Positions 4,867 to 18,600 of a DNA stretch of 24,603 nucleotides are shown piece after piece. The stretch spans positions 1 to 24,603 of the forward strand of contig CAZREA010000011.1 in NCBI GenBank assembly GCA_964599455.1. The letters are read 5' to 3'. Origin of the DNA: an uncultured Gammaproteobacteria bacterium. GTDB taxonomy: Bacteria; Patescibacteriota; Patescibacteriia; UBA9934. Made by a program: the position numbers and the translations under genes. How positions within the stretch are numbered: position 1 is the first letter of the stretch; each line of letters starts with the position of its first letter. Below the pieces are notes generated by a model. It ran no database searches. It saw only the letters and a program-made list of their open reading frames with translations, and had not been told where the DNA came from.

Positions 4867-7485
4867 GTGGGTGTGTTTATACGAAGGTTTTTTCAAACAT
4901 TTTTTTTGGTCATTTTTGCGGCTGTTAGTACAGGTTTGCCGATATTTTTTGCATATGCCGATACGCTGTCATCGGTCGAAGCGCAGCCGTCGTCGCTTGT
5001 TGTAAGTCAGGGTGCAAATCAAAAATTTCTTTTTACGACAGTTTCGGCCTGGACCGATGGCGAAACGCTTACCATCACGTTTCCGAGCGGATATACAACG
5101 ACGTCCATTACCGAAGATGATGTTGATATTGCTGATGATGGTGTTGATAAAACAACGGCCGCTACATGTACAGGAACCGAAGAGATGTCGGTGGCGATGG
5201 CGGCAAATGTTTTAACGTTAACGGTGTGTAGTGGTGATGGTGGTTCGGTTGGTGCAGGTTCGGCGGTGGTGATTGAAGTTGGTCGCAATGCGTCATCCTC
5301 CGGCAACGGCACGCAACAAATAACAAATCCCTCGAATCAAAGTTCTTATTTTATCGATATCGGCGGCACGTTCGGCGATGGCGGCTCGGTTATTGTTCCT
5401 ATCGTCGCTACTGATTCGTCGGGTGTTTCAACGACAGTGCCTTCATCAAGTTCGGGCGGAAGTGGCGGCGGCGGTGGAGGTGGCGGAACCGTTGGTGGAG
5501 GAGATGATAGTGATAGTGGTGATGAGGTTGATGAGGGAACGGATGAACCCGATCCGGGAACTGATGAAGGTACGGATGAAACGGATCCTACAGATCCGGG
5601 AATTGATGAGGAAACGCCGGGGGAAGATGGGACTCCAGAAGGAGATCCAGGATCAACGGATACGGGTTCGGACACGAGTGGTGATGCATCCGGAGATAGT
5701 TCATCGTCAGGTGAAGATTCGTCGAGCGGTGACGACGCTTCCTCGGGCACAGACTCAGAAGGCGGAGAGGATACGAGTGGCGGAGCCGGATCTCTTTCGG
5801 AGCAAGAGATTGATCTTGGTATTTATGCGTATGATTTGCCGTTGGCGGTTACTGATGATGGCGTGAGCGTGTTGCCGGGAACAACGGCGACCGTTGTTGT
5901 TTTTTTACCTAAAGAAGAGGATGCAGAAAAGATGGTTTTAGAAATCGGTCCGCGCTCATATGCTTTTGTAGAAGTGCCAGATGGCTCGTGGTCGATTGAT
6001 GTCGTGTTGCCGCAAGCTAATATTCCCGGTGTTATTCGCGTGACCGATACCGATGGCTCTACGCGTAGCGCACGAATATTGTTTGATGTGATTGGCGAAG
6101 GTGGCGTTTATGAAATTCTTGAAGGTTCAACGCAGGGTATTGAAGGTGCTGAGGTGACAGTTCTTTCGTCTAATGGTTTGATTTGGGATGGTGCAGCTTA
6201 TGAACAATCCCCAATTCTGCTAACTAATAATCAGGGAAATGGTATTGCGTGGTATGTACCGAATGGAATGTATCAAGTTCGAGTGACGAAACAGGGATAC
6301 GAAGAAACGACTGTTTTTGTTACGGTAACAAATACTATTCTCGCTCCGACGATTTTTCTCGAACGTACAGACGAAGTCGTGGTGCCGCCGGAAGAAGGTG
6401 AGCAGACGGGCACGGGAGAACTATCAGTAACAGACTCACCTGGCATCAGCGAACTCAAACAAGAAACGTTTTTCGAAAGTCTTCTTCCTGATTTTCTTTC
6501 TGAACTCCCTGTGCTTCCAGAAACATTCCTCCCTTTTCTCTCCGAGGAAGATGCACAGACTGTTCAGGATGTAGCCGTGCCGGCCGTGGCGGTTGCAACC
6601 GTAGCAGTGACAGCAGCTTCGGGAGCAACAAATCTAGGCTTGTTGTTGTATTCCTTTTTCACACAACCACTGCTTTTTCTCTCCCGTCGTCGGAATCGTC
6701 AGGTGAGCATTGCCTATAATAGTGCAACTAAGATGCCCCTTGATCTTGTTACTATTCGTGTTTTTGCATCCGAAACCGGACGATTAGTGAAGACATTGGT
6801 CACTAATGAAAAGGGAGAATTCTTTCTTTCACTTAATAAAATTGGGAAATATCGTCTTGAAGCGATGAAAACAGGATTTGTGTTTCCGAGCGAGCATTTT
6901 AAAGAGGTGAGAGAAGATGGAAAATATCAGGATGTCTATGCAGGACAGGAAATAGAAATAGGTGAAGGATCGCCGTTGATCGCGATATCCATGCCGCTTG
7001 ATCCTGAAGGGGTTGATATACCTATGAAGCAATTGCAGTGGCAGCGTTTCAAACGACGTTTTGCGACGGCACTTTCTCCGATGAGCGTACTAGTGGCGTT
7101 TATTGCCTTTTTGGCAACACCAGTTTTTTTTACGGGAATGCTCTTTTTTGCGCAGATTCTTTTTTGGGCAATCGCATGGCGCTTGACGCATAAAAAACGT
7201 CCAATGTCATGGGGTATTGTCTATGACGCACAAACGCGTAAGCCTGTGGGCAATACGGTCATCCGACTCTTTGAACCGCAGTATAATAAGCTGGTCGAAT
7301 CAACGTTGTCTGATGCGCAGGGACGATATGCATTTTTATTAGGACCCAATGCGTATTTTGCTACTTATCGCAAAGATGGCTACGTCGAGGCGACGGTTCG
7401 ACCTATCGACTATCGTGCAAAAACAGAACCGCAAATTTTCGGAGTTGCGGTTCCGTTAGGACGCGATCAACAGAAACATGGATAA
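4867..7485 (+). CDS. Large multi-TM surface protein with an acidic linker and CarboxypepD_reg-like domains (operon gene 3)
   Basis: 872-aa ORF with a GTG start at 4867. AAGGAGAGG lies at 4843-4851, so the exact start is uncertain. It has an N-terminal signal/TM followed by a beta domain. About 115 aa form a G/S/D/E/T low-complexity region. Three segments match the carboxypeptidase-regulatory-like fold pattern: GAEVTVLSSNG...NNQGNGIAWYVPNGMYQVRVTKQGYEE, VTIRVFASETGRLV...NEKGEFFLSLNKIGKYRLEAMKTGF, and NTVIRLFEP...DAQGRYAFLLGPNAYFATYRKDGY. Several hydrophobic helices lie between them. Confidence 0.8.
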   Translation: MGVFIRRFFQTFFLVIFAAVSTGLPIFFAYADTLSSVEAQPSSLVVSQGANQKFLFTTVSAWTDGETLTITFPSGYTTTSITEDDVDIADDGVDKTTAATCTGTEEMSVAMAANVLTLTVCSGDGGSVGAGSAVVIEVGRNASSSGNGTQQITNPSNQSSYFIDIGGTFGDGGSVIVPIVATDSSGVSTTVPSSSSGGSGGGGGGGGTVGGGDDSDSGDEVDEGTDEPDPGTDEGTDETDPTDPGIDEETPGEDGTPEGDPGSTDTGSDTSGDASGDSSSSGEDSSSGDDASSGTDSEGGEDTSGGAGSLSEQEIDLGIYAYDLPLAVTDDGVSVLPGTTATVVVFLPKEEDAEKMVLEIGPRSYAFVEVPDGSWSIDVVLPQANIPGVIRVTDTDGSTRSARILFDVIGEGGVYEILEGSTQGIEGAEVTVLSSNGLIWDGAAYEQSPILLTNNQGNGIAWYVPNGMYQVRVTKQGYEETTVFVTVTNTILAPTIFLERTDEVVVPPEEGEQTGTGELSVTDSPGISELKQETFFESLLPDFLSELPVLPETFLPFLSEEDAQTVQDVAVPAVAVATVAVTAASGATNLGLLLYSFFTQPLLFLSRRRNRQVSIAYNSATKMPLDLVTIRVFASETGRLVKTLVTNEKGEFFLSLNKIGKYRLEAMKTGFVFPSEHFKEVREDGKYQDVYAGQEIEIGEGSPLIAISMPLDPEGVDIPMKQLQWQRFKRRFATALSPMSVLVAFIAFLATPVFFTGMLFFAQILFWAIAWRLTHKKRPMSWGIVYDAQTRKPVGNTVIRLFEPQYNKLVESTLSDAQGRYAFLLGPNAYFATYRKDGYVEATVRPIDYRAKTEPQIFGVAVPLGRDQQKHG
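5449..5797 (+). repeat. Low-complexity acidic Gly/Ser/Asp/Glu/Thr linker (coding, inside gene 3)
   Basis: Translation reads SSSGGSGGGGGGGGTVGGGDDSDSGDEVDEGTDEPDPGTDEGTDETDP...SSGEDSSSGDDASSGTDSEGGEDTSGG. This region also produces the spurious antisense ORF 5346..5750. Confidence 0.8.
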
Positions 7486-14039: not shown

Positions 14040-14650
14040 CTAAACCCCCAGCGTAGCTGGGGTGTACGTTTGTAGGCAACGCATATACTAAAAGCCGCCT
14101 GGCAGGGCGGCTTTTAGTGTTGCATTGTCCTATGTATCACAAACGTACCATCCGTACCTTATCACATTGTTACTATGACCTAAAATATCATCTCGTATGG
14201 ACACCGAAGTATCGAGGAAAGGTATTAGGATCAGACAAGATCACACAGGAGCTTATTCGAATCTTTGAGAGTATCTGCAAGTGGAAACATTGGGAGATCA
14301 TCGAACTCAATATCCAAGAGGATCATATCCACATGTGTTTGCTTGCCACTCCTCGTGACTCAATCTCCTATGTCATGCAAAACCTCAAAGGCAAATCATC
14401 TGCATGGCTCAAGAAAAAGATCAAACGTACCCATGGACTCTACGAACGGCACTCCCTTTGGGCACGAGGCTACTTTGTCTCAACAATAGGAATCGATGAG
14501 TTCATCATCCGTCGCTACGTCAGACACCAACATCACCACAATGAGATCGACCAACCCTCTTTGTTTGAAAAACTCTTAACCTAACACCAGAGCGCCCTGC
14601 CAGCGCAGCTGGCAAACACAAAGCCACCGGACCTCAGTCCGGTGGTCTGG
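14040..14650 (+). mobile_element. IS200/IS605-family insertion sequence (tnpA only); boundaries approximate
   Basis: A Y1 transposase ORF is flanked by subterminal hairpins. On the left: CCCCAGC-GTA-GCTGGGG (14046-14062) and AAAAGCCGCC-TGGCAG-GGCGGCTTTT (14090-14115). On the right: TGCCAGC-GCA-GCTGGCA (14598-14614) and CCACCGGAC-CTCA-GTCCGGTGG (14624-14645). The left CTGGCAGGGCG is the reverse complement of the right CGCCCTGCCAG. No tnpB is present. Confidence 0.75.
14132..14584 (+). CDS. tnpA: IS200/IS605-family Y1 (HUH) transposase TnpA
   Basis: YDLKYHLVWTPKYRGKVL, the HUH motif EDHIHMCLLATP, KGKSSAWL, and the catalytic-Tyr region LWARGYFVSTIG. The layout is collinear with Salmonella IS200 TnpA. 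The start is ATG 14132 (MYHKRT) or 14117. Confidence 0.85.
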   Translation: MYHKRTIRTLSHCYYDLKYHLVWTPKYRGKVLGSDKITQELIRIFESICKWKHWEIIELNIQEDHIHMCLLATPRDSISYVMQNLKGKSSAWLKKKIKRTHGLYERHSLWARGYFVSTIGIDEFIIRRYVRHQHHHNEIDQPSLFEKLLT

Positions 14651-14709: not shown

Positions 14710-15786
14710 ATGTTGAATGTTGGAATTGTTGGGTTGCCGAATGTGGGAAAGTCCACGCTTTTTACGGCTATTACCAAAAAACAGGTTGATTGTGCGAATT
14801 TCCCCTTTTGTACGATCGAGCCAAACGTGGGTGTTGTCGAAGTTCCGGATCCACGCTTGAAAGTCTTGACCGAGATGTCGAAGTCGGAAAAAACCATCCC
14901 GACCGCTATTGAATTTGTTGATATTGCCGGTCTTGTGAAGGGTGCACACGAAGGTGCGGGACTCGGAAATAAGTTTCTTGCGAATATTCGTGAAGTCGAC
15001 ATGATCGCTCATGTGGTTCGTTCGTTTTCAAGTAAAGATATCATTCACGTCGACGGTTCGGTTGATCCGATGCGCGATGTTGAAGTGATCGAGCTTGAGC
15101 TTGCGATGGCTGATTTGGTGACGGTCGAAAAGATGTTTGATGCGGTAAAGAGCAAGATGAAGTCAGGAAAGAATCCTGATCTTGTCGCACAAGCATCGGC
15201 TTTGGAAAAATGGTTTACTGCGCTATCTGCCGGCATATTGGCGCGAACGGTTGAGTTGACGGACGAAGAGCAAGAAGCGATGAAGGGCGTGCAGCTTTTA
15301 ACGAACAAACCGATTCTTTATGTGGTGAATGTCGACGAAGCTGATGCGAAGGATCCGAACTGGACATCGCCGCTTGGACCAGATCGTTTGGCGATTCCTA
15401 TTTCGGTAAAGATTGAAGCGGATCTTGCGGGTCTTCCCGAAGCTGAGGCAAAGGAGATGCTCGAGGCATTGGAGATGAAAGAATCTGGTCTCGATAAGGT
15501 GATTAAAAAGTGTTACGAGCTACTTCATTTGATTACGTTTTTGACGACCGGTGAGAAGGAGACGCGGGCATGGACCGTGACAAGAGGTGCCAAAGCCCCG
15601 CAAGCTGCTGGCGTGATCCATACTGATTTTGAAAAGAATTTCATCCGTGCCGAAGTGATTGCCTACGATGATTATGTTGCATGCAAAGGTGAATCAGGTG
15701 CACGTGATGCCGGAAAATTACGGATTGAAGGAAAGGAATATGTGATGCGTGATGGTGATGTGTGTCATTTTCGGGTGAATGCGTAA
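14710..15786 (+). CDS. ychF: Ribosome-binding ATPase YchF
   Basis: 358 aa. The N-terminal G1 motif is [15 protein letters not shown], followed by [14 protein letters not shown] and [27 protein letters not shown]. The C-terminal TGS-like end is [31 protein letters not shown]. Confidence 0.9.
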
Positions 15787-15792
15787 TTTAAG

Positions 15793-15818
15793 ACCCGACG
15801 CATACGAACGTCGGGTTT
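15793..15818. terminator. Hairpin terminator shared by ychF (+) and the micro-ORF cluster (-)
   Basis: ACCCGACG-CATACGAA-CGTCGGGT followed by a short T run. It lies 7 nt after the ychF stop and 16 nt after the last micro-ORF stop on the other strand. Confidence 0.5.
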
Positions 15819-15833
15819 GGACGGAGGACACGG

Positions 15834-15929
15834 TTACGATGAACCATGGATGACGGTTGCGATCAGTGCGACCGCGATGATAATGAGGAAGAGGCCAAGC
15901 CCGATGAGTCCAGCAGGAATTGAAACCAT
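15834..15929 (-). CDS. Micro-ORF 3: 31-aa hydrophobic TM peptide
   Basis: Hand-translated as MVSIPAGLIGLGLFLIIIAVALIATVIHGSS. GGAGGTG (15933-15939) lies 3 nt upstream of the ATG at 15929-15927. An in-frame upstream ATG at 15986 would give 50 aa but has no Shine-Dalgarno site. Confidence 0.6.
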   Translation of the reverse strand: MVSIPAGLIGLGLFLIIIAVALIATVIHGSS

Positions 15930-15993
15930 GAACACCTCCGAGCTCACTGAACGATAAGGGATTTTGTTGTGATGTTGCGCATTCATGCAGGCA

Positions 15994-16092
15994 CTACTCG
16001 TACCAGGGGTCCTCGCCGAGGATCCGGAGATAGTCGCGGTACCACTTGCCGAATGCTCCGATCAGAAGTACTGCTGAGATGAACCGCCACAT
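15994..16092 (-). CDS. Micro-ORF 2: 32-aa peptide
   Basis: Hand-translated as MWRFISAVLLIGAFGKWYRDYLRILGEDPWYE. GGAGGAG lies 7 nt upstream of the ATG, inside the end of micro-ORF 1. It shares 1 nt with the stop of micro-ORF 1, consistent with translational coupling. Confidence 0.55.
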   Translation of the reverse strand: MWRFISAVLLIGAFGKWYRDYLRILGEDPWYE

Positions 16093-16205
16093 CACTTTAC
16101 TCCTCCACAGCATAGGACAAAGATCACGATCATCACGATGACGATTGTGACGATGAGCTTGAACTCCTCCTTCTCGGGGTCTTTCTTTTTTTCTTCTGCA
16201 TTCAT
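16092..16205 (-). CDS. Micro-ORF 1: 37-aa single-TM peptide
   Basis: Hand-translated as MNAEEKKKDPEKEEFKLIVTIVIVMIVIFVLCCGGVK. GGAGGTG (16211-16217) lies 5 nt upstream of the ATG at 16205-16203. The stop TGA overlaps the next ATG (TGATG). Below the 60-aa ORF-track cutoff. Confidence 0.6.
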   Translation of the reverse strand: MNAEEKKKDPEKEEFKLIVTIVIVMIVIFVLCCGGVK

Positions 16206-16225
16206 GAAGACACCTCCTACCGAAT

Positions 16226-16252
16226 CTTATAGAAAACAGAGATCTTTTTCAA
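16226..16252 (-). promoter_or_regulatory. Possible sigma70-like promoter for the micro-ORF cluster
   Basis: On the minus strand: TTGAAA (16252-16247), a 15-nt spacer, then TATAAG (16231-16226), about 20 nt upstream of the micro-ORF 1 ATG. The spacer is short. Read-through from the methyltransferase gene is equally possible. Confidence 0.25.
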
Positions 16253-16263
16253 TACTCGCCGTA

Positions 16264-17436
16264 TTATTTCTTTTCAAATCTCAATAATTCCCGGCCCACA
16301 AATTGTCCCTCATGACGATAAAGAAGTGACGTTTCAAAGGGAAGATGTTTGTAGCCGACACGTTCAAGTGCGTCGATGGTATCCACGGCGTATGCTTCTT
16401 GATCAAGAAAATGGACCGGCGAGGCAATAATGACGCGGGCACCAGGTTTGAGAGTAGGGAAGAGTGCAGCAAAACTTTCCGAGTACAGATTTTCGAGATA
16501 ACGAACTGCTTCTTCGAGTTGTTCTCGCGTTTCCTGTCCTTGACGGGGTTTGCCGAGATACGGTTCGGTGACGAGGATATCGATACTTTCTGGGGCAAGA
16601 TGCTCAATGAGTTTTTCGGCGGGTACGGCAAACAGATCAAGCTCGTGATGCAGACCAAGTTCTTTTTCTGCCCACACAAGATTTGCCTTGGTGTCGGCAA
16701 TTGCTTGTGCACTAATATCGCCGCCCACAAGACGAGAGGCACCAAGAAGCGATGCTTCCATGAGCACGGTGCCGCTGCCGCAAAACGGATCGAGCACGGT
16801 GGTGTTTGCCAGATTGCGACCGGCAAGATTGAGCATGATGCGCGCAAGTTTTGGTGGCAACATGCCTTGCTTGGCATTGGTGCGTGGACGTTCGCGATCG
16901 CGTTTGGTCCAAGCGTCGATATTTTGGATCGCTTCGGTTTTACCAATAAACAGTTTTTCGAGTGTAGCGAGAATAATGAATTCCGCACCTTTTTCGATGA
17001 GATGATTGCTCAGAATGGTGGCTGCATTTAAAACCGGCGTTTTACTCATCACATAGCGAGCGGATTTTTCTTGGGCGCGTAAGCTTTGCTTGATCGCAAT
17101 ACCCAGGTGATGAATTTCCGGTCCAAGTTTTTGTACGATTTTTTGCTCGCCATACACGCTGATACCAAAGTGCACTTTGCTCTCTCGCAACGTGAGCAGC
17201 TCTTCGGTAAAAAGATCGGTCAGCTCGGTAGGGGTTGCGTTGGCAGGAAGTTCGGCAACCAGTGTGCCAATCTTTTGTGATCCGCCCAATTGCTCCATTA
17301 AGCGAGTGCTATTCCAAGACGTATCGTCATATATTGCGAATGTTGGCGAAGAAAGAGACGGACTATCTCCCGAAACCGCTTTAATTTCTTCAATGGAGAT
17401 ATCAGGATGGGCACCTAGAATGGCAAACGTTTGCAT
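16264..17436 (-). CDS. SAM-dependent methyltransferase, UPF0020/Trm11/RlmL-like (probable RNA N2-guanine type; a DNA target is not excluded)
   Basis: The ORF track gives 16264..17454. I moved the start to Met7 (MQTFAILGAHPDISIEEI). Motif I is VLDPFCGSGTVLMEASLLGA. The motif IV variant is ILVTEPYLGKP (NPPY-like). The N-terminal ~190 aa could be a THUMP-like RNA-binding domain. Confidence 0.6.
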   Translation of the reverse strand: MQTFAILGAHPDISIEEIKAVSGDSPSLSSPTFAIYDDTSWNSTRLMEQLGGSQKIGTLVAELPANATPTELTDLFTEELLTLRESKVHFGISVYGEQKIVQKLGPEIHHLGIAIKQSLRAQEKSARYVMSKTPVLNAATILSNHLIEKGAEFIILATLEKLFIGKTEAIQNIDAWTKRDRERPRTNAKQGMLPPKLARIMLNLAGRNLANTTVLDPFCGSGTVLMEASLLGASRLVGGDISAQAIADTKANLVWAEKELGLHHELDLFAVPAEKLIEHLAPESIDILVTEPYLGKPRQGQETREQLEEAVRYLENLYSESFAALFPTLKPGARVIIASPVHFLDQEAYAVDTIDALERVGYKHLPFETSLLYRHEGQFVGRELLRFEKK

Positions 17437-17529
17437 ATGGACGCTAGTGTACATGAAGTGGATATCTTCTCCTACTACCCCCTTTCAGAGGGTAATATTC
17501 TCCTTATTGTATCGGTTCGATGTCGACTT

Positions 17530-18600
17530 ATGAAAAATATTGAAGGATTTGTTTCCAGAGAACCTGTTTCGCGGGAAGATAAGGTGTATAGGGAGCATCT
17601 TCAACAGAAAAGAGAGAATCCTTCTGGGATAAAGAATCCGAAGAATGATATCTCTTTTGGATCAGCGGCATTGCGAGGATCAGAAGAATTCGAAAAGATA
17701 AAATCGCGTATTTCTTTAAGTATAAACGAAGGAATAATATCGGCAGATCAAGGAGAGTCTTCATTGCAGAGAGAACGGCAGATGCAAGCAAGAGAGCTTC
17801 GTGATGCTTTTGAGCACTTGCGCCTTGTTGAAGGTATGACCGATCTTTCCAAATCACAAGTTGAACTTTTGCTCGTGCGGGCGTTGTATGACAAAAATGT
17901 TCAAGCTACATGGGGCGAAGATATACAACCGGTACCGATGGAGCCGGAAGATTTTTGGAAATGTTTCGATGCCGGTCAGGTTTCCGAAACGGTACTCATC
18001 GCCATTCTTCGTCAGCGACAGGAATACATGCAGGAAGTGCAAAGAGAAAAGGAAACACTTTTTAATAAATACCGTGAGGAATTTCGAACTCGGCTACATG
18101 AGGAGATTGCTGTAGGATTCATTCCCGCAGACGATCGTTTTGATGAGTTAATTGATTCGGTACAATTTTTTGTTCTTGACGAAGTGAATGGTTGGAATCC
18201 CTATACAAGGTCAGTGAGAGGAGGTCGGTCACACGGAGCGGGCATTATTACTCTTGAAGTAGGAGAGGATGATAGTTTTATTCGTGATCTTGTTTTTCAC
18301 GAAATGATGCATGTCATGGCTGGGAAAATGACCGAACGCTACAATTTTATTGTTCAAGGCGTGAAGGGAGAGAGTTATCGTAAACGTAAAGGAGGCTTGA
18401 AGTTTTTTCGTGGAGATAAGAATGGTGCCTTGGGAAGATGGCTTGATGAAGGGATGACCGAAAGATATGGCTCTGGCTGGCTTAAGCTTTTTGAGGAAGA
18501 AGTACAGGGAAAAGAAAATCCCATTTTTGCAAAGAAAAAAGCAGATTTGGCAAAGGCTCGAGCTGAACTGCAAGAATCGTTTGATCCCTCGTCTCAGTAG
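17530..18600 (+). CDS. Hypothetical cytoplasmic protein with a gluzincin-like HExxH...WLxEG motif
   Basis: The ORF track gives 17431..18600. The start is taken at ATG 17530 (MKNIEGFV), divergent from the methyltransferase gene. It contains DLVFHEMMHVMAG and, 40-50 aa downstream, RWLDEGMTERYG. There is no signal peptide. The N-terminal half is charged and coiled-coil-like. Confidence 0.6.
   Translation: MKNIEGFVSREPVSREDKVYREHLQQKRENPSGIKNPKNDISFGSAALRGSEEFEKIKSRISLSINEGIISADQGESSLQRERQMQARELRDAFEHLRLVEGMTDLSKSQVELLLVRALYDKNVQATWGEDIQPVPMEPEDFWKCFDAGQVSETVLIAILRQRQEYMQEVQREKETLFNKYREEFRTRLHEEIAVGFIPADDRFDELIDSVQFFVLDEVNGWNPYTRSVRGGRSHGAGIITLEVGEDDSFIRDLVFHEMMHVMAGKMTERYNFIVQGVKGESYRKRKGGLKFFRGDKNGALGRWLDEGMTERYGSGWLKLFEEEVQGKENPIFAKKKADLAKARAELQESFDPSSQ

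What the first reader, a model, noticed from the sequence alone, without database searches (positions are those of the whole stretch)
15834..16205. Three tandem, translationally coupled micro-ORFs with consensus Shine-Dalgarno sites in an apparently empty gap
The 480-bp interval between ychF and the methyltransferase gene has no ORF in the supplied track. On the minus strand it nevertheless encodes three consecutive small ORFs. They are 37 aa (MNAEEKKKDPEKEEFKLIVTIVIVMIVIFVLCCGGVK), 32 aa (MWRFISAVLLIGAFGKWYRDYLRILGEDPWYE) and 31 aa (MVSIPAGLIGLGLFLIIIAVALIATVIHGSS). Each ATG follows GGAGGTG or GGAGGAG after a 3-7 nt gap. ORF1 and ORF2 overlap in a TGATG junction. ORF2 and ORF3 are separated by 64 nt, or by only 7 nt if the upstream ATG of ORF3 is used. 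Nearly every other gene in the window lacks any Shine-Dalgarno site (ychF, ssb, rpsR, efp, epmA, operon genes 2, 4 and 5), so three perfect ones in a row are conspicuous. The stretch also looks more GC-rich than its surroundings. Two of the peptides are essentially single TM helices. They could be a small membrane-protein complex, accessory subunits, or a toxin-like or bacteriocin-like set.
Basis: seen in the sequence. Interest (0 to 1): 0.7.

Follow-up and report, generated by a model that had tools for sequence, protein, structure and literature searches.

The report
Orphan three-gene small membrane-protein operon
A 372-bp stretch in a Candidatus Uhrbacteria (Patescibacteria) genome very probably encodes a strain-specific, likely horizontally acquired mini-operon of three tiny proteins, two of them single membrane helices, sitting in a variable spot between two housekeeping genes; its function is unknown and it is a modest rather than surprising find.

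Summary
Three consecutive minus-strand ORFs (37, 32 and 31 aa) lie in the 477-bp ychF–methyltransferase (MT) gap. Each follows GGAGG(T/A)G, and ORF1 and ORF2 overlap in TGATG.

The pattern is not chance:
- The lineage rarely uses Shine-Dalgarno (SD) sites.
- Of 3,179 short ORFs in 1.1 Mb of related DNA, 0.06% had a TM segment as strong, 1.5% had an SD as strong, and none had both. ORF1 and ORF3 have both.
- All three ORFs show in-frame GC3>GC1>GC2, with GC3 above host genes.

The cassette lies between the MT stop codon and the hairpin that serves as the shared ychF/MT terminator in relatives, so MT read-through should transcribe it. ORF1 and the 50-aa long form of ORF3 look like diverged paralogues. 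The long form starts 7 nt after the ORF2 stop, which makes the unit almost fully coding.

No homologue was found in protein databases, 164 related loci, phages, plasmids or family libraries. In relatives the same gap holds R-M, MazF, sigma-factor and IS200-like cargo.

Best reading: a real, recently acquired accessory operon of small membrane proteins. Function is unassigned. Type I toxin and leaderless-bacteriocin membership is not supported. Public gene callers already call ORF1 and ORF3. Interest is modest.

The parts
16264..17454 (-). Upstream gene: conserved SAM-dependent methyltransferase (UPF0020/RMKL-like domain). It is the likely source of read-through transcription into the cassette.
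   Evidence: Pfam PF01170, E=1.1e-12. It is syntenic in relatives. No terminator-like hairpin lies between its stop codon and ORF1.
16224..16252 (-). Sigma-70-like promoter candidate (TTGAAA-17 nt-TAAGAT) in the 58-nt MT–ORF1 spacer. The predicted start site falls at or just before the ORF1 SD.
   Evidence: Consensus scan, 9 of 12 matches. This is weak: 5 such sites were found in 2.6 kb against 2.5 expected.
16211..16217 (-). Shine-Dalgarno site of ORF1 (GGAGGTG, 5 nt before the ATG).
   Evidence: Anti-SD duplex energy is -11.5 kcal/mol.
16092..16205 (-). ORF1, 37 aa: MNAEEKKKDPEKEEFK, then the TM helix LIVTIVIVMIVIFVLCCGGV, then K. It is a tail-anchored type single-pass micro-protein.
   Evidence: Hessa dGapp sum is -5.8 over 17 residues. 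It is called as a gene in Logan assemblies. GC1/2/3 is 0.47/0.21/0.63.
16166..16170 (-). Internal GGAGG within ORF1 (codons K-E-E). It is not followed by a start codon. It is the paralogous counterpart of the ORF3 SD (GGAGGAGTTCAAG versus GGAGGTGTTCATG).
16100..16106 (-). Shine-Dalgarno site of ORF2 (GGAGGAG, 7 nt before the ATG), lying inside the 3' end of ORF1.
   Evidence: Duplex energy is -9.3 kcal/mol.
15994..16092 (-). ORF2, 32 aa: MWRFISAVLLIGAFGKWYRDYLRILGEDPWYE. It has a 12-residue hydrophobic N-terminal stretch and an amphipathic, aromatic-rich C-terminal half. Its start overlaps the ORF1 stop (TGATG).
   Evidence: It is not a canonical TM helix, and muH is 0.76 for KWYRDYLRILG. AF2 single-sequence model gives one helix over residues 2–25, pLDDT 84. 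GC1/2/3 is 0.55/0.39/0.79. The host-codon score is non-coding-like at -0.08. Gene callers do not call it.
15834..15986 (-). ORF3 long form, 50 aa (MNAQHHNKIPYRSVSSEVF + the 31-aa form). It starts 7 nt after the ORF2 stop and has no SD. It is a probable paralogue of ORF1.
   Evidence: A 37-nt direct repeat with 26 of 37 identities runs in ATG-to-ATG register with ORF1. Shuffle p values are 0.006 for DNA and 0.035 for protein. The indel is in-frame at 12 nt. The N-terminal extension has GC1/2/3 of 0.47/0.32/0.58.
15933..15939 (-). Shine-Dalgarno site of ORF3 short form (GGAGGTG, 3 nt before the ATG). It is also codons S-E-V of the long form.
   Evidence: Duplex energy is -10.8 kcal/mol.
15834..15929 (-). 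ORF3 short form, 31 aa: MVSIPAGLIGLGLFLIIIAVALIATVIHGSS, essentially one TM helix.
   Evidence: dGapp sum is about -4.4 over 19 residues. Host-like codon score is 0.27, and only 1.3% of stop-free non-coding segments score higher. The exact sequence is present in NCBI and Logan gene calls as a singleton cluster.
15823..15827 (-). CCUCC (anti-SD-like) element in the 3' UTR, 6 nt after the ORF3 stop. It is predicted to pair with the ORF1 SD.
   Evidence: MFE and centroid fold. Pair probability is 0.58–0.98 depending on the transcript model. The whole-transcript fold is not better than shuffles (z = -0.55), so its significance is uncertain.
15791..15818 (.). GC-rich hairpin with a 9–10 bp stem (CCCGACG…CGTCGGG core) between the convergent ychF and ORF3 stops. 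It is the probable bidirectional terminator.
   Evidence: Folds give z = -2.3 on the minus strand and -2.85 on the plus strand. It is unique in the window. Relatives with a minimal gap have a single bidirectional terminator hairpin at the same place.
14710..15786 (+). Convergent neighbour ychF (ribosome-binding ATPase/GTPase). It was the anchor used to fetch orthologous loci.
   Evidence: Pfam PF06071 and PF01926. 160 related loci were fetched with it.

Best explanation
This is a genuine, strain-specific micro-operon of three cistrons, most likely acquired horizontally. It sits in a hypervariable insertion spot between the convergent housekeeping genes ychF and a methyltransferase (MT).

Transcription (inferred). 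The cassette lies between the MT stop codon and the hairpin that acts as the shared ychF/MT terminator in relatives. MT transcripts should therefore read through it. A weak sigma-70-like promoter in the 58-nt spacer may add to this. Transcription should end at the 15791–15818 hairpin.

Translation (inferred from sequence signals). ORF1 starts at a strong SD. ORF2 starts at its own SD and is coupled to ORF1 through the TGATG overlap. ORF3 may be made in two forms. The 50-aa form would arise by re-initiation 7 nt after the ORF2 stop, and the 31-aa form from an internal SD-led ATG.

Products. ORF1 and ORF3 are diverged paralogues. Each has a short polar N-terminal tail followed by one very hydrophobic helix, giving a tail-anchored type, N-in topology (inferred). 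ORF2 is a single helix with a hydrophobic N-half and an amphipathic, aromatic-rich C-half, which probably lies at the membrane interface.

Function. The most likely role is a small hetero-oligomeric membrane assembly with an accessory, non-essential function. Cargo at the same spot in relatives (R-M, MazF, extra sigma factor, IS200-like) suggests a membrane-perturbing, exclusion or immunity-type role. That last step is speculation and nothing here shows it.
For: - Signals: three SDs of -9.3 to -11.5 kcal/mol sit at correct spacing. The lineage is SD-poor: only 5% of ORFs >=250 aa reach -9, and ychF, MT, ssb and rpsF in relatives almost never do.
- Clustering: three SD+ATG+ORF sites this close occurred in 1 of 300 simulations.
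- Short-ORF null: in 1.1 Mb of related DNA, 2 of 3,179 short ORFs had an equally strong TM segment, 49 had an equally strong SD, and none had both. ORF1 and ORF3 have both.
- Coding periodicity: GC3>GC1>GC2 holds in the frame of each ORF and of the ORF3 N-terminal extension. GC3 is 0.56–0.79 against host 0.43±0.10, and ORF2's 0.79 exceeds all 202 host segments. This indicates coding sequence with non-host codon usage.
- Host-like score: ORF3 has a host-gene-like codon score.
- Layout: the architecture is compact, with a 1-nt overlap and a 7-nt gap if the long ORF3 is used.
- Paralogy: ORF1 and long ORF3 match in start-to-start register with an in-frame indel.
- Position: relatives with a minimal gap carry only a bidirectional terminator there, and no terminator separates MT from ORF1.
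- Hotspot: the gap ranges from 0 to 3.5 kb and holds accessory cargo in relatives. Other, mutually homologous small TM ORFs occur there in L042 and L045.
- Independent calls: gene callers called ORF1 and ORF3.
- Background: Patescibacteria are known to be rich in novel TM and secreted proteins (PMC10849945).
Against: - No homologue of any of the three peptides was found anywhere, so there is no comparative evidence of purifying selection.
- The only other copies are 100% identical contigs of the same strain.
- Host-codon scores are non-coding-like for ORF2 and ambiguous for ORF1.
- The ORF3 'SD' may simply be coding sequence of the long form. It is paralogous to the internal GGAGG of ORF1, which reduces the count of independent SDs from three to two.
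- The promoter match is at chance level.
- It is not known whether ribosomes of this SD-poor lineage use SDs efficiently. The 16S rRNA is not in the window.
- There are no expression data.
Confidence: 0.62

Rival explanations
1. Foreign-derived but functionless cargo. The sequence was shaped as coding DNA in a donor organism and was recently inserted here. It is transcribed passively as the MT 3' UTR, is not translated to a useful level or not selected in this host, and is on its way to decay.
For: - It is a singleton with no relatives.
- Its codon usage and SD style are non-host.
- It sits in a turnover hotspot whose content differs between all relatives.
- The lineage largely ignores SDs.
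Against: All three frames are intact with start codon, SD and stop codon, and the coupling junctions are preserved. There are no frameshifts or internal stops. A decaying insert would be expected to lose these quickly, but with no second allele the age cannot be measured.
Confidence: 0.2
2. Type I toxin–antitoxin-like locus. ORF1 and/or ORF3 would be membrane-depolarising toxins. Their translation would be held in check by SD sequestration (the 3'-UTR CCUCC pairing with the ORF1 SD, as in hok fold-back inhibition) and by an antisense RNA from the plus strand.
For: - The peptides are under 60 aa, hydrophobic, and have one TM helix (family features from PMC8309996).
- The long and short ORF3 products recall SprG1 at 44 and 31 aa.
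- The ORF1 SD is predicted to pair with the 3'-UTR CCUCC at P = 0.58–0.98.
- A plus-strand promoter-like site (15857–15884) and a terminator-like site (16163–16180) could delimit an antisense RNA.
- The hotspot hosts a MazF toxin in a relative.
Against: - The antisense promoter and terminator matches are at chance frequency.
- The whole-transcript fold is no better than shuffles.
- The cationic C-terminal tail typical of these toxins is absent (ORF1 ends GGVK, ORF3 ends HGSS).
- There are three different co-translated cistrons rather than one toxin or tandem paralogous loci with their own antisense RNAs.
- Strong, apparently constitutive SDs on an mRNA read through from a housekeeping gene would be dangerous for a toxin.
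- There are no hits to known toxin families.
Confidence: 0.08
3. Leaderless multi-peptide bacteriocin-like set (as in aureocin A70 and garvicin KS), or a bacteriocin with its immunity peptides, used by an episymbiotic CPR cell against competitors or its host.
For: There are three tandem ORFs of 31–37 aa with their own SDs. This resembles the aurABCD and gakABC layouts, whose peptides are 30–34 aa (PMC6131525). ORF2 is Trp/Tyr-rich and amphipathic.
Against: - Known members are strongly cationic (+4 to +5, pI about 11), only moderately hydrophobic, and homologous to each other. Here the net charge is 0 for each peptide, ORF1 and ORF3 are full TM helices, and ORF2 is unrelated to them.
- There is no adjacent dedicated ABC exporter or immunity gene. 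The neighbours are ychF and MT.
- There is no sequence similarity to any family.
Confidence: 0.04
4. Chance ORFs or a non-coding RNA element. The GGAGG motifs would serve another purpose, or the region would be a structured RNA or plain 3' UTR.
For: ORFs of about 30 codons are common by chance. There is no conservation. The ORF2 codon score is low.
Against: - The joint SD+TM property was absent from 3,179 short ORFs of related DNA.
- The clustering occurred in 1 of 300 simulations.
- In-frame GC3 periodicity is present.
- No Rfam family matches, and folding z-scores are -0.55 and -0.19.
Confidence: 0.04

Closest known systems
Bacterial small membrane proteins under 50 aa encoded in compact operons (for example AcrZ, CydX, KdpF, MgtS; recalled from general knowledge, not tested here)
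   Same: The size (31–50 aa) and the single hydrophobic helix with a short polar tail match. So do SD-led starts and tight translational coupling.
   Different: The known examples are encoded next to, or act on, a large partner such as a pump, oxidase or transporter, and they are conserved across genera. Here there is no partner gene in the unit and no conservation beyond one strain.
Membrane-associated type I toxins (Hok, TisB, Fst, BsrG, SprG1; review PMC8309996)
   Same: The peptides are under 60 aa, hydrophobic, and have one predicted TM helix. ORF3 could yield a long and a short product from one frame, like SprG1 at 44 and 31 aa. SD–anti-SD pairing within the mRNA is possible.
   Different: There is no demonstrable antisense RNA and no cationic C-terminus. 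The unit has three heterologous cistrons, sits in the 3' region of a housekeeping transcript, and shows no family similarity.
Leaderless multi-peptide bacteriocins (aureocin A70 AurA–D, garvicin KS GakA–C; PMC6131525)
   Same: There are three tandem ORFs of about 30–37 aa, each apparently translated without a leader.
   Different: Known peptides are cationic (+4 to +5), mutually homologous and amphipathic rather than membrane-spanning, and are linked to transporter or immunity genes. None of this holds here.
Uncharacterised small TM ORFs at the same ychF–MT junction in other Uhrbacteria (47-aa ORF in L042 and L045, 31-aa ORF in L045, 40-aa ORF in L073)
   Same: They share the genomic spot, the size class, the single TM helix, and in some cases an SD-like motif.
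   Different: They lie on the opposite strand, downstream of ychF. They have no sequence similarity to ORF1–3 beyond TM composition.

Membership tests
Membrane-associated type I toxin–antitoxin systems | Toxin under 60 aa, hydrophobic, with one putative alpha-helical TM domain (PMC8309996) | tested here: met
   ORF1 (37 aa) and ORF3 (31 or 50 aa) have dGapp sums of -4.4 to -5.8 over 17–19 residues.
Membrane-associated type I toxin–antitoxin systems | Cis- or trans-encoded antisense RNA antitoxin overlapping or pairing with the toxin mRNA | tested here: inconclusive
   One plus-strand promoter-like site and one terminator-like site flank the region, but such sites occur at chance frequency. There is no Rfam sRNA match. 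No RNA-seq data are available.
Membrane-associated type I toxin–antitoxin systems | Cis mRNA elements that sequester the ribosome-binding site | tested here: inconclusive
   The ORF1 SD pairs with the 3'-UTR CCUCC at P = 0.58–0.98. The overall fold has z = -0.55, and purine-rich/CU-rich pairing is expected from the coding content alone.
Membrane-associated type I toxin–antitoxin systems | Cationic residues concentrated at the C-terminus | tested here: not met
   ORF1 ends ...CCGGVK, with a single Lys. ORF3 ends ...VIHGSS. Net charge is 0.
Membrane-associated type I toxin–antitoxin systems | Toxicity or membrane depolarisation on overexpression | not testable with these tools
   This needs an experiment.
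Leaderless multi-peptide bacteriocins (aureocin A70 / garvicin KS group) | Three or four tandem peptides of about 26–34 aa that are homologous to one another | tested here: not met
   Tandem layout and size are met. However, ORF2 is unrelated to ORF1 and ORF3 (p = 0.47 and 0.45), and ORF1 versus ORF3L is only weakly similar (p = 0.035).
Leaderless multi-peptide bacteriocins (aureocin A70 / garvicin KS group) | Strongly cationic (+2 to +5, pI about 10–11), moderately hydrophobic amphipathic peptides (PMC6131525, Table 2) | tested here: not met
   Net charge is 0 for ORF1, ORF2 and ORF3. ORF1 and ORF3 are full TM helices.
Leaderless multi-peptide bacteriocins (aureocin A70 / garvicin KS group) | Conserved adjacent genes for export and immunity | tested here: not met
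   The neighbours are ychF and a methyltransferase. The only ABC transporter genes in the window are about 6.7 kb away and separated by housekeeping genes.
SecE / Sec61-gamma (PF00584) | Score at or above the Pfam gathering threshold (22.7 bits) | tested here: not met
   ORF1 scores 18.3 bits (E = 0.0022) over its TM part only. This is a compositional match.
Any curated protein family (Pfam, NCBIfam, PHROGs, PADLOC, PDB sequences) | Significant profile or sequence match | tested here: not met
   Only sub-threshold hits driven by TM composition were found.

The most novel reading that the evidence does not exclude
The cassette could be a self-contained three-peptide membrane-active module. Two paralogous TM peptides would work with one amphipathic, possibly exported, Trp/Tyr-rich peptide. 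An ultra-small, probably host-dependent Patescibacteria cell would have acquired it and would use it for killing, exclusion or immunity at the cell-cell interface. Its expression would be set apart from the rest of the proteome by SD-dependent initiation in a lineage that otherwise barely uses SDs. That would be a new family of peptide effectors and a natural example of SD-selective translation in an SD-poor organism.
Probability: 0.08. Interest if true: 0.6.

Novelty: new member of a known kind. Interest (0 to 1): 0.3.

Why it matters
If the peptides are translated, they add three ORFan micro-proteins to the poorly charted small-protein complement of Patescibacteria. In that phylum, novel membrane and secreted proteins are thought to mediate the host-dependent lifestyle. 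The locus also shows that the convergent ychF/MT terminator region is a recurrent landing site for accessory cargo in Uhrbacteria. It offers a compact test case for whether SD-led genes are translated efficiently in an SD-poor lineage. Without a function or any conservation, the finding remains a candidate annotation (ORF2, and the long form of ORF3) rather than a discovery.

Tried and rejected
- **Homology searches.** The exact-sequence look-up found only ORF3, as a singleton. The word-indexed search of 5.8 billion proteins gave ORF3L matching itself only, and no candidates for ORF1 or ORF2, which had been extended upstream in-frame to reach the 40-aa minimum. Exhaustive phmmer of ORF2 against 1.84 billion representatives gave one hit, P0002. 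It is a spurious translation of a periodic repeat array, probably a CRISPR array, so I rejected it.
- **Apparent ORF2 conservation.** 'MWRF' hits in relatives turned out to fall at the C-terminal end of the MT gene, so I rejected them.
- **Related loci.** tblastn, tblastx and blastn against 164 loci scored no better than shuffled peptides.
- **Closer strains.** The metagenome scan with MT found none. The scan with ychF found nothing closer than 85%. L001 and L002 are the identical strain, so no dN/dS is possible.
- **Other collections.** Phage and plasmid blastn gave short chance matches only. Degenerate-pattern and peptide scans of viral contigs gave only chance matches or no confirmed relative.
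- **Remnant of a larger gene or of the nearby IS200-like element.** No similarity supports this.
- **REP-like repeated hairpin.** The hairpin is unique in the window.
- **Structured RNA.** No Rfam hit and no fold signal.
- **GC-rich island.** The excess is only +1.1 sd, so I rejected it as a signal.
- **rpsF SD as a lineage feature.** It is not conserved in relatives.
- **Tool limits.** The search for related loci could not take ORF2 because it is too short.
Full report
**Context.** ychF relatives identify the window as a Candidatus Uhrbacteria (Patescibacteria/CPR) contig. The best matches are 85–86% identical at the amino-acid level. The local gene order is: TPR protein → IS200-like gene → ychF → [477-bp gap] ← methyltransferase (MT) → hypothetical gene → rpsF → ssb.

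**1. Checking the observation.**
- The minus strand of the gap carries ORF1 (16205..16092, 37 aa) and ORF2 (16092..15994, 32 aa), which overlap in TGATG. It also carries ORF3 (15929..15834, 31 aa).
- An in-frame upstream ATG at 15986 gives a 50-aa ORF3 form that starts 7 nt after the ORF2 stop.
- GGAGGTG or GGAGGAG precedes each ATG by 3–7 nt.
- Anti-SD duplex energies are -11.5, -9.3 and -10.8 kcal/mol. Most of the 17 large genes are weaker than -3; only rpsF reaches -9.7, and four others lie between -6.4 and -7.2. Only 16 of 919 ATGs in the window reach -9.
- SD poverty is a property of the lineage. Among ORFs >=250 aa in 1.1 Mb of related loci, only 5% reach -9. ychF, MT, ssb and rpsF almost never have an SD.
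- Three SD+ATG+ORF(>=30 aa) sites within 400 nt on one strand arose in 1 of 300 Markov simulations.
- The 'GC-rich' remark is marginal: 0.503 against 0.461, which is +1.1 sd.
- The gap is not unannotated in public data. Gene callers called the 37-aa and 31-aa ORFs on two Logan contigs that are identical to the window, and the 31-aa product is also in NCBI. ORF2 was not called.

**2. Evidence that these are coding sequences.**
- ORF1 and ORF3 each contain a very hydrophobic helix, with Hessa dGapp sums of -4.4 to -5.8.
- I built a null from all 3,179 first-ATG ORFs of 28–55 aa in related DNA. Only 2 (0.06%) had such a helix, 49 (1.5%) had an SD this strong, and none had both. Chance is therefore effectively excluded for ORF1 and ORF3.
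- A codon log-odds model trained on the window's own genes scores ORF3 as gene-like (0.27; 1.3% of stop-free non-coding segments score higher). ORF1 is ambiguous (0.08) and ORF2 looks non-coding (-0.08).
- However, all three ORFs, and the N-terminal extension of long ORF3, show GC3>GC1>GC2 in their own frames. GC3 is 0.56–0.79 against 0.43±0.10 in host genes. ORF2's 0.79 exceeds every one of 202 host-gene segments.
- So ORF2's poor host-codon score is better explained by foreign codon usage than by absence of coding.
- ORF2 also spans exactly from the ORF1 stop to 7 nt before the long ORF3 start. With the long ORF3, only 7 of the unit's 372 nt are non-coding.
- AlphaFold2 on the single ORF2 sequence gives one helix over residues 2–25 (pLDDT 84). 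It has a 12-residue hydrophobic N-half and an amphipathic C-half (muH 0.76).

**3. Internal paralogy.**
- A 37-nt direct repeat with 26 of 37 identities aligns the ORF1 start region with the long ORF3 start region, in ATG-to-ATG register: MNAEEKKKDP against MNAQHHNKIP.
- Shuffle p values are 0.006 for DNA and 0.035 for protein.
- After an in-frame 12-nt indel, ORF1's internal GGAGGAGTTCAAG aligns with ORF3's GGAGGTGTTCATG.
- ORF1 and ORF3 thus look like diverged duplicates that kept their reading frame.
- A consequence is that the ORF3 'SD' may be inherited coding sequence that became an internal start through AAG→ATG. ORF3 could then be made in 50-aa and 31-aa forms, as described for SprG1 (PMC8309996).

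**4. Genomic setting.**
- Synteny ychF→ ←MT is conserved in about 60 relatives, but the gap ranges from about 0 to 3.5 kb.
- Relatives with a minimal gap (L003, L005, L038, L055) have only a classical bidirectional terminator hairpin there.
- In the window, the equivalent hairpin (15791–15818; z = -2.3 and -2.85; unique in the window) abuts ychF.
- The cassette sits between that hairpin and the MT stop, with no terminator after MT. It is therefore inside the MT transcription unit. A weak promoter-like site in the 58-nt spacer could add transcription.
- In other relatives the gap holds an extra sigma-70 factor, an IS200-like transposase, a PvuII-type R-M pair, a MazF/PemK toxin, a glycosyltransferase, and unrelated small TM ORFs.
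- This is an accessory-gene hotspot. The cassette's atypical SDs and high GC3 fit recent horizontal acquisition.

**5. Homology.** I found none.
- Protein databases gave only ORF3 matching itself, plus one spurious repeat-array translation.
- The 164 related loci gave scores no better than shuffles.
- Phages, plasmids and viral contigs gave only chance matches.
- Pfam, PHROGs, NCBIfam, PADLOC and PDB gave only sub-threshold compositional hits, for example SecE at 18.3 bits against a gathering score of 22.7.
- There is no evidence for a structured RNA.

**6. Mechanism and comparison with known systems.**
- The best-supported reading is a real, recently acquired tricistronic operon. It encodes two paralogous tail-anchored-type membrane micro-proteins and one interfacial amphipathic helix. 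It is co-transcribed with MT and translated through SDs and coupling.
- Function is inferred only by context: an accessory module acting at the membrane.
- Type I toxin membership: size, hydrophobicity and TM helix are met. The cationic C-terminus is not met. The antisense RNA and SD sequestration tests are inconclusive. The ORF1 SD does pair with a 3'-UTR CCUCC at P = 0.58–0.98, but the fold as a whole is not significant.
- Leaderless multi-peptide bacteriocin membership: only the tandem layout and size are met. Charge, mutual homology and linked export or immunity genes are not met.
- I therefore file the cassette under the general kind 'small bacterial membrane proteins', as new ORFan members.
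- This fits the known richness of novel TM and secreted proteins in Patescibacteria (PMC10849945; PMC6744442).

**7. Verdict.** Novelty is 'new member of a known kind'. Interest is modest at 0.3. The statistics for ORF1 and ORF3 are strong, and the architecture and possible HGT signature are neat. Against that, there is no conservation, no expression evidence and no functional handle, and two of the three ORFs are already called by standard pipelines.

Noticed in passing
window:14021-14709 (gene 14117-14584, +): An IS200-like Y1 transposase gene (PF01797, E=3.9e-33) sits between the TPR protein gene and ychF, which lie close together in many relatives (a few tens to about 100 bp apart). It is preceded by a GC-rich hairpin (GCCGCCTGGCAGGGCGGC). 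IS200-like genes also occupy the ychF–MT gap in L013 and L018, so the flanks of ychF appear to attract this element.
   Followed up: partly
window:17431-18600 (+; gene callers use a 356-aa form starting near 17530): A hypothetical protein with no Pfam domain lies between MT and rpsF. In the closest relatives (L003, L004) MT and rpsF are only about 120 bp apart. This is therefore a second lineage-specific insertion next to the same housekeeping genes.
   Followed up: no
L042:5150-5293 (+) and L045:4530-4673 (+); L045:4435-4530 (+): A 47-aa TM ORF is conserved between two relatives at 49% identity (MxxLFIxQEAFAxGxAxxWPxER...). It lies just downstream of ychF in the same gap, and L045 has an additional SD-led 31-aa TM ORF. 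These are unannotated candidate small-protein genes, unrelated in sequence to ORF1–3.
   Followed up: partly
Lineage-wide: 160 ychF loci (L003–L164): Shine-Dalgarno usage is very low in this Uhrbacteria-like lineage. Only 5% of ORFs >=250 aa reach dG <= -9 kcal/mol, and ychF, MT, ssb and rpsF essentially never have an SD. In the window only rpsF has a strong one (AGGAGG, -9.7), and that SD is not conserved in relatives.
   Followed up: partly
ychF–MT gap in L019 (5081-6826), L023 (5807-6136), L010 and L016 (about 5125-6033): The convergent ychF/MT terminator region is an accessory-gene hotspot. It holds a PvuII-type restriction endonuclease with an N6/N4 methylase (L019), a MazF/PemK toxin (L023), and extra sigma-70 factors (L010, L016).
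   Followed up: partly
window:15823-15827 versus 16213-16217 (minus strand): A CCUCC element 6 nt after the ORF3 stop is predicted to pair with the ORF1 SD at P = 0.58–0.98. This 5'–3' interaction would resemble hok-type fold-back inhibition. The whole-transcript fold is not better than shuffles, so the pairing may be incidental.
   Followed up: partly
window:2952-14020 (+): A run of five large ORFs (334, 317, 872, 1400 and 777 aa) with overlapping or abutting ends carries CarboxypepD_reg, Peptidase_G2-like and TPR domains. It is probably a surface or secreted protein operon. The TPR gene is syntenic with ychF in relatives.
   Followed up: no
P0002 (647-aa database protein): The only phmmer hit for ORF2 is a periodic protein (GLSPRVRSG…IISACAERT…DYLRVCGAD, repeated about every 60 residues). 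It is evidently a spurious translation of a repeat array, probably a CRISPR array, and is an artefact in the protein collection.
   Followed up: yes
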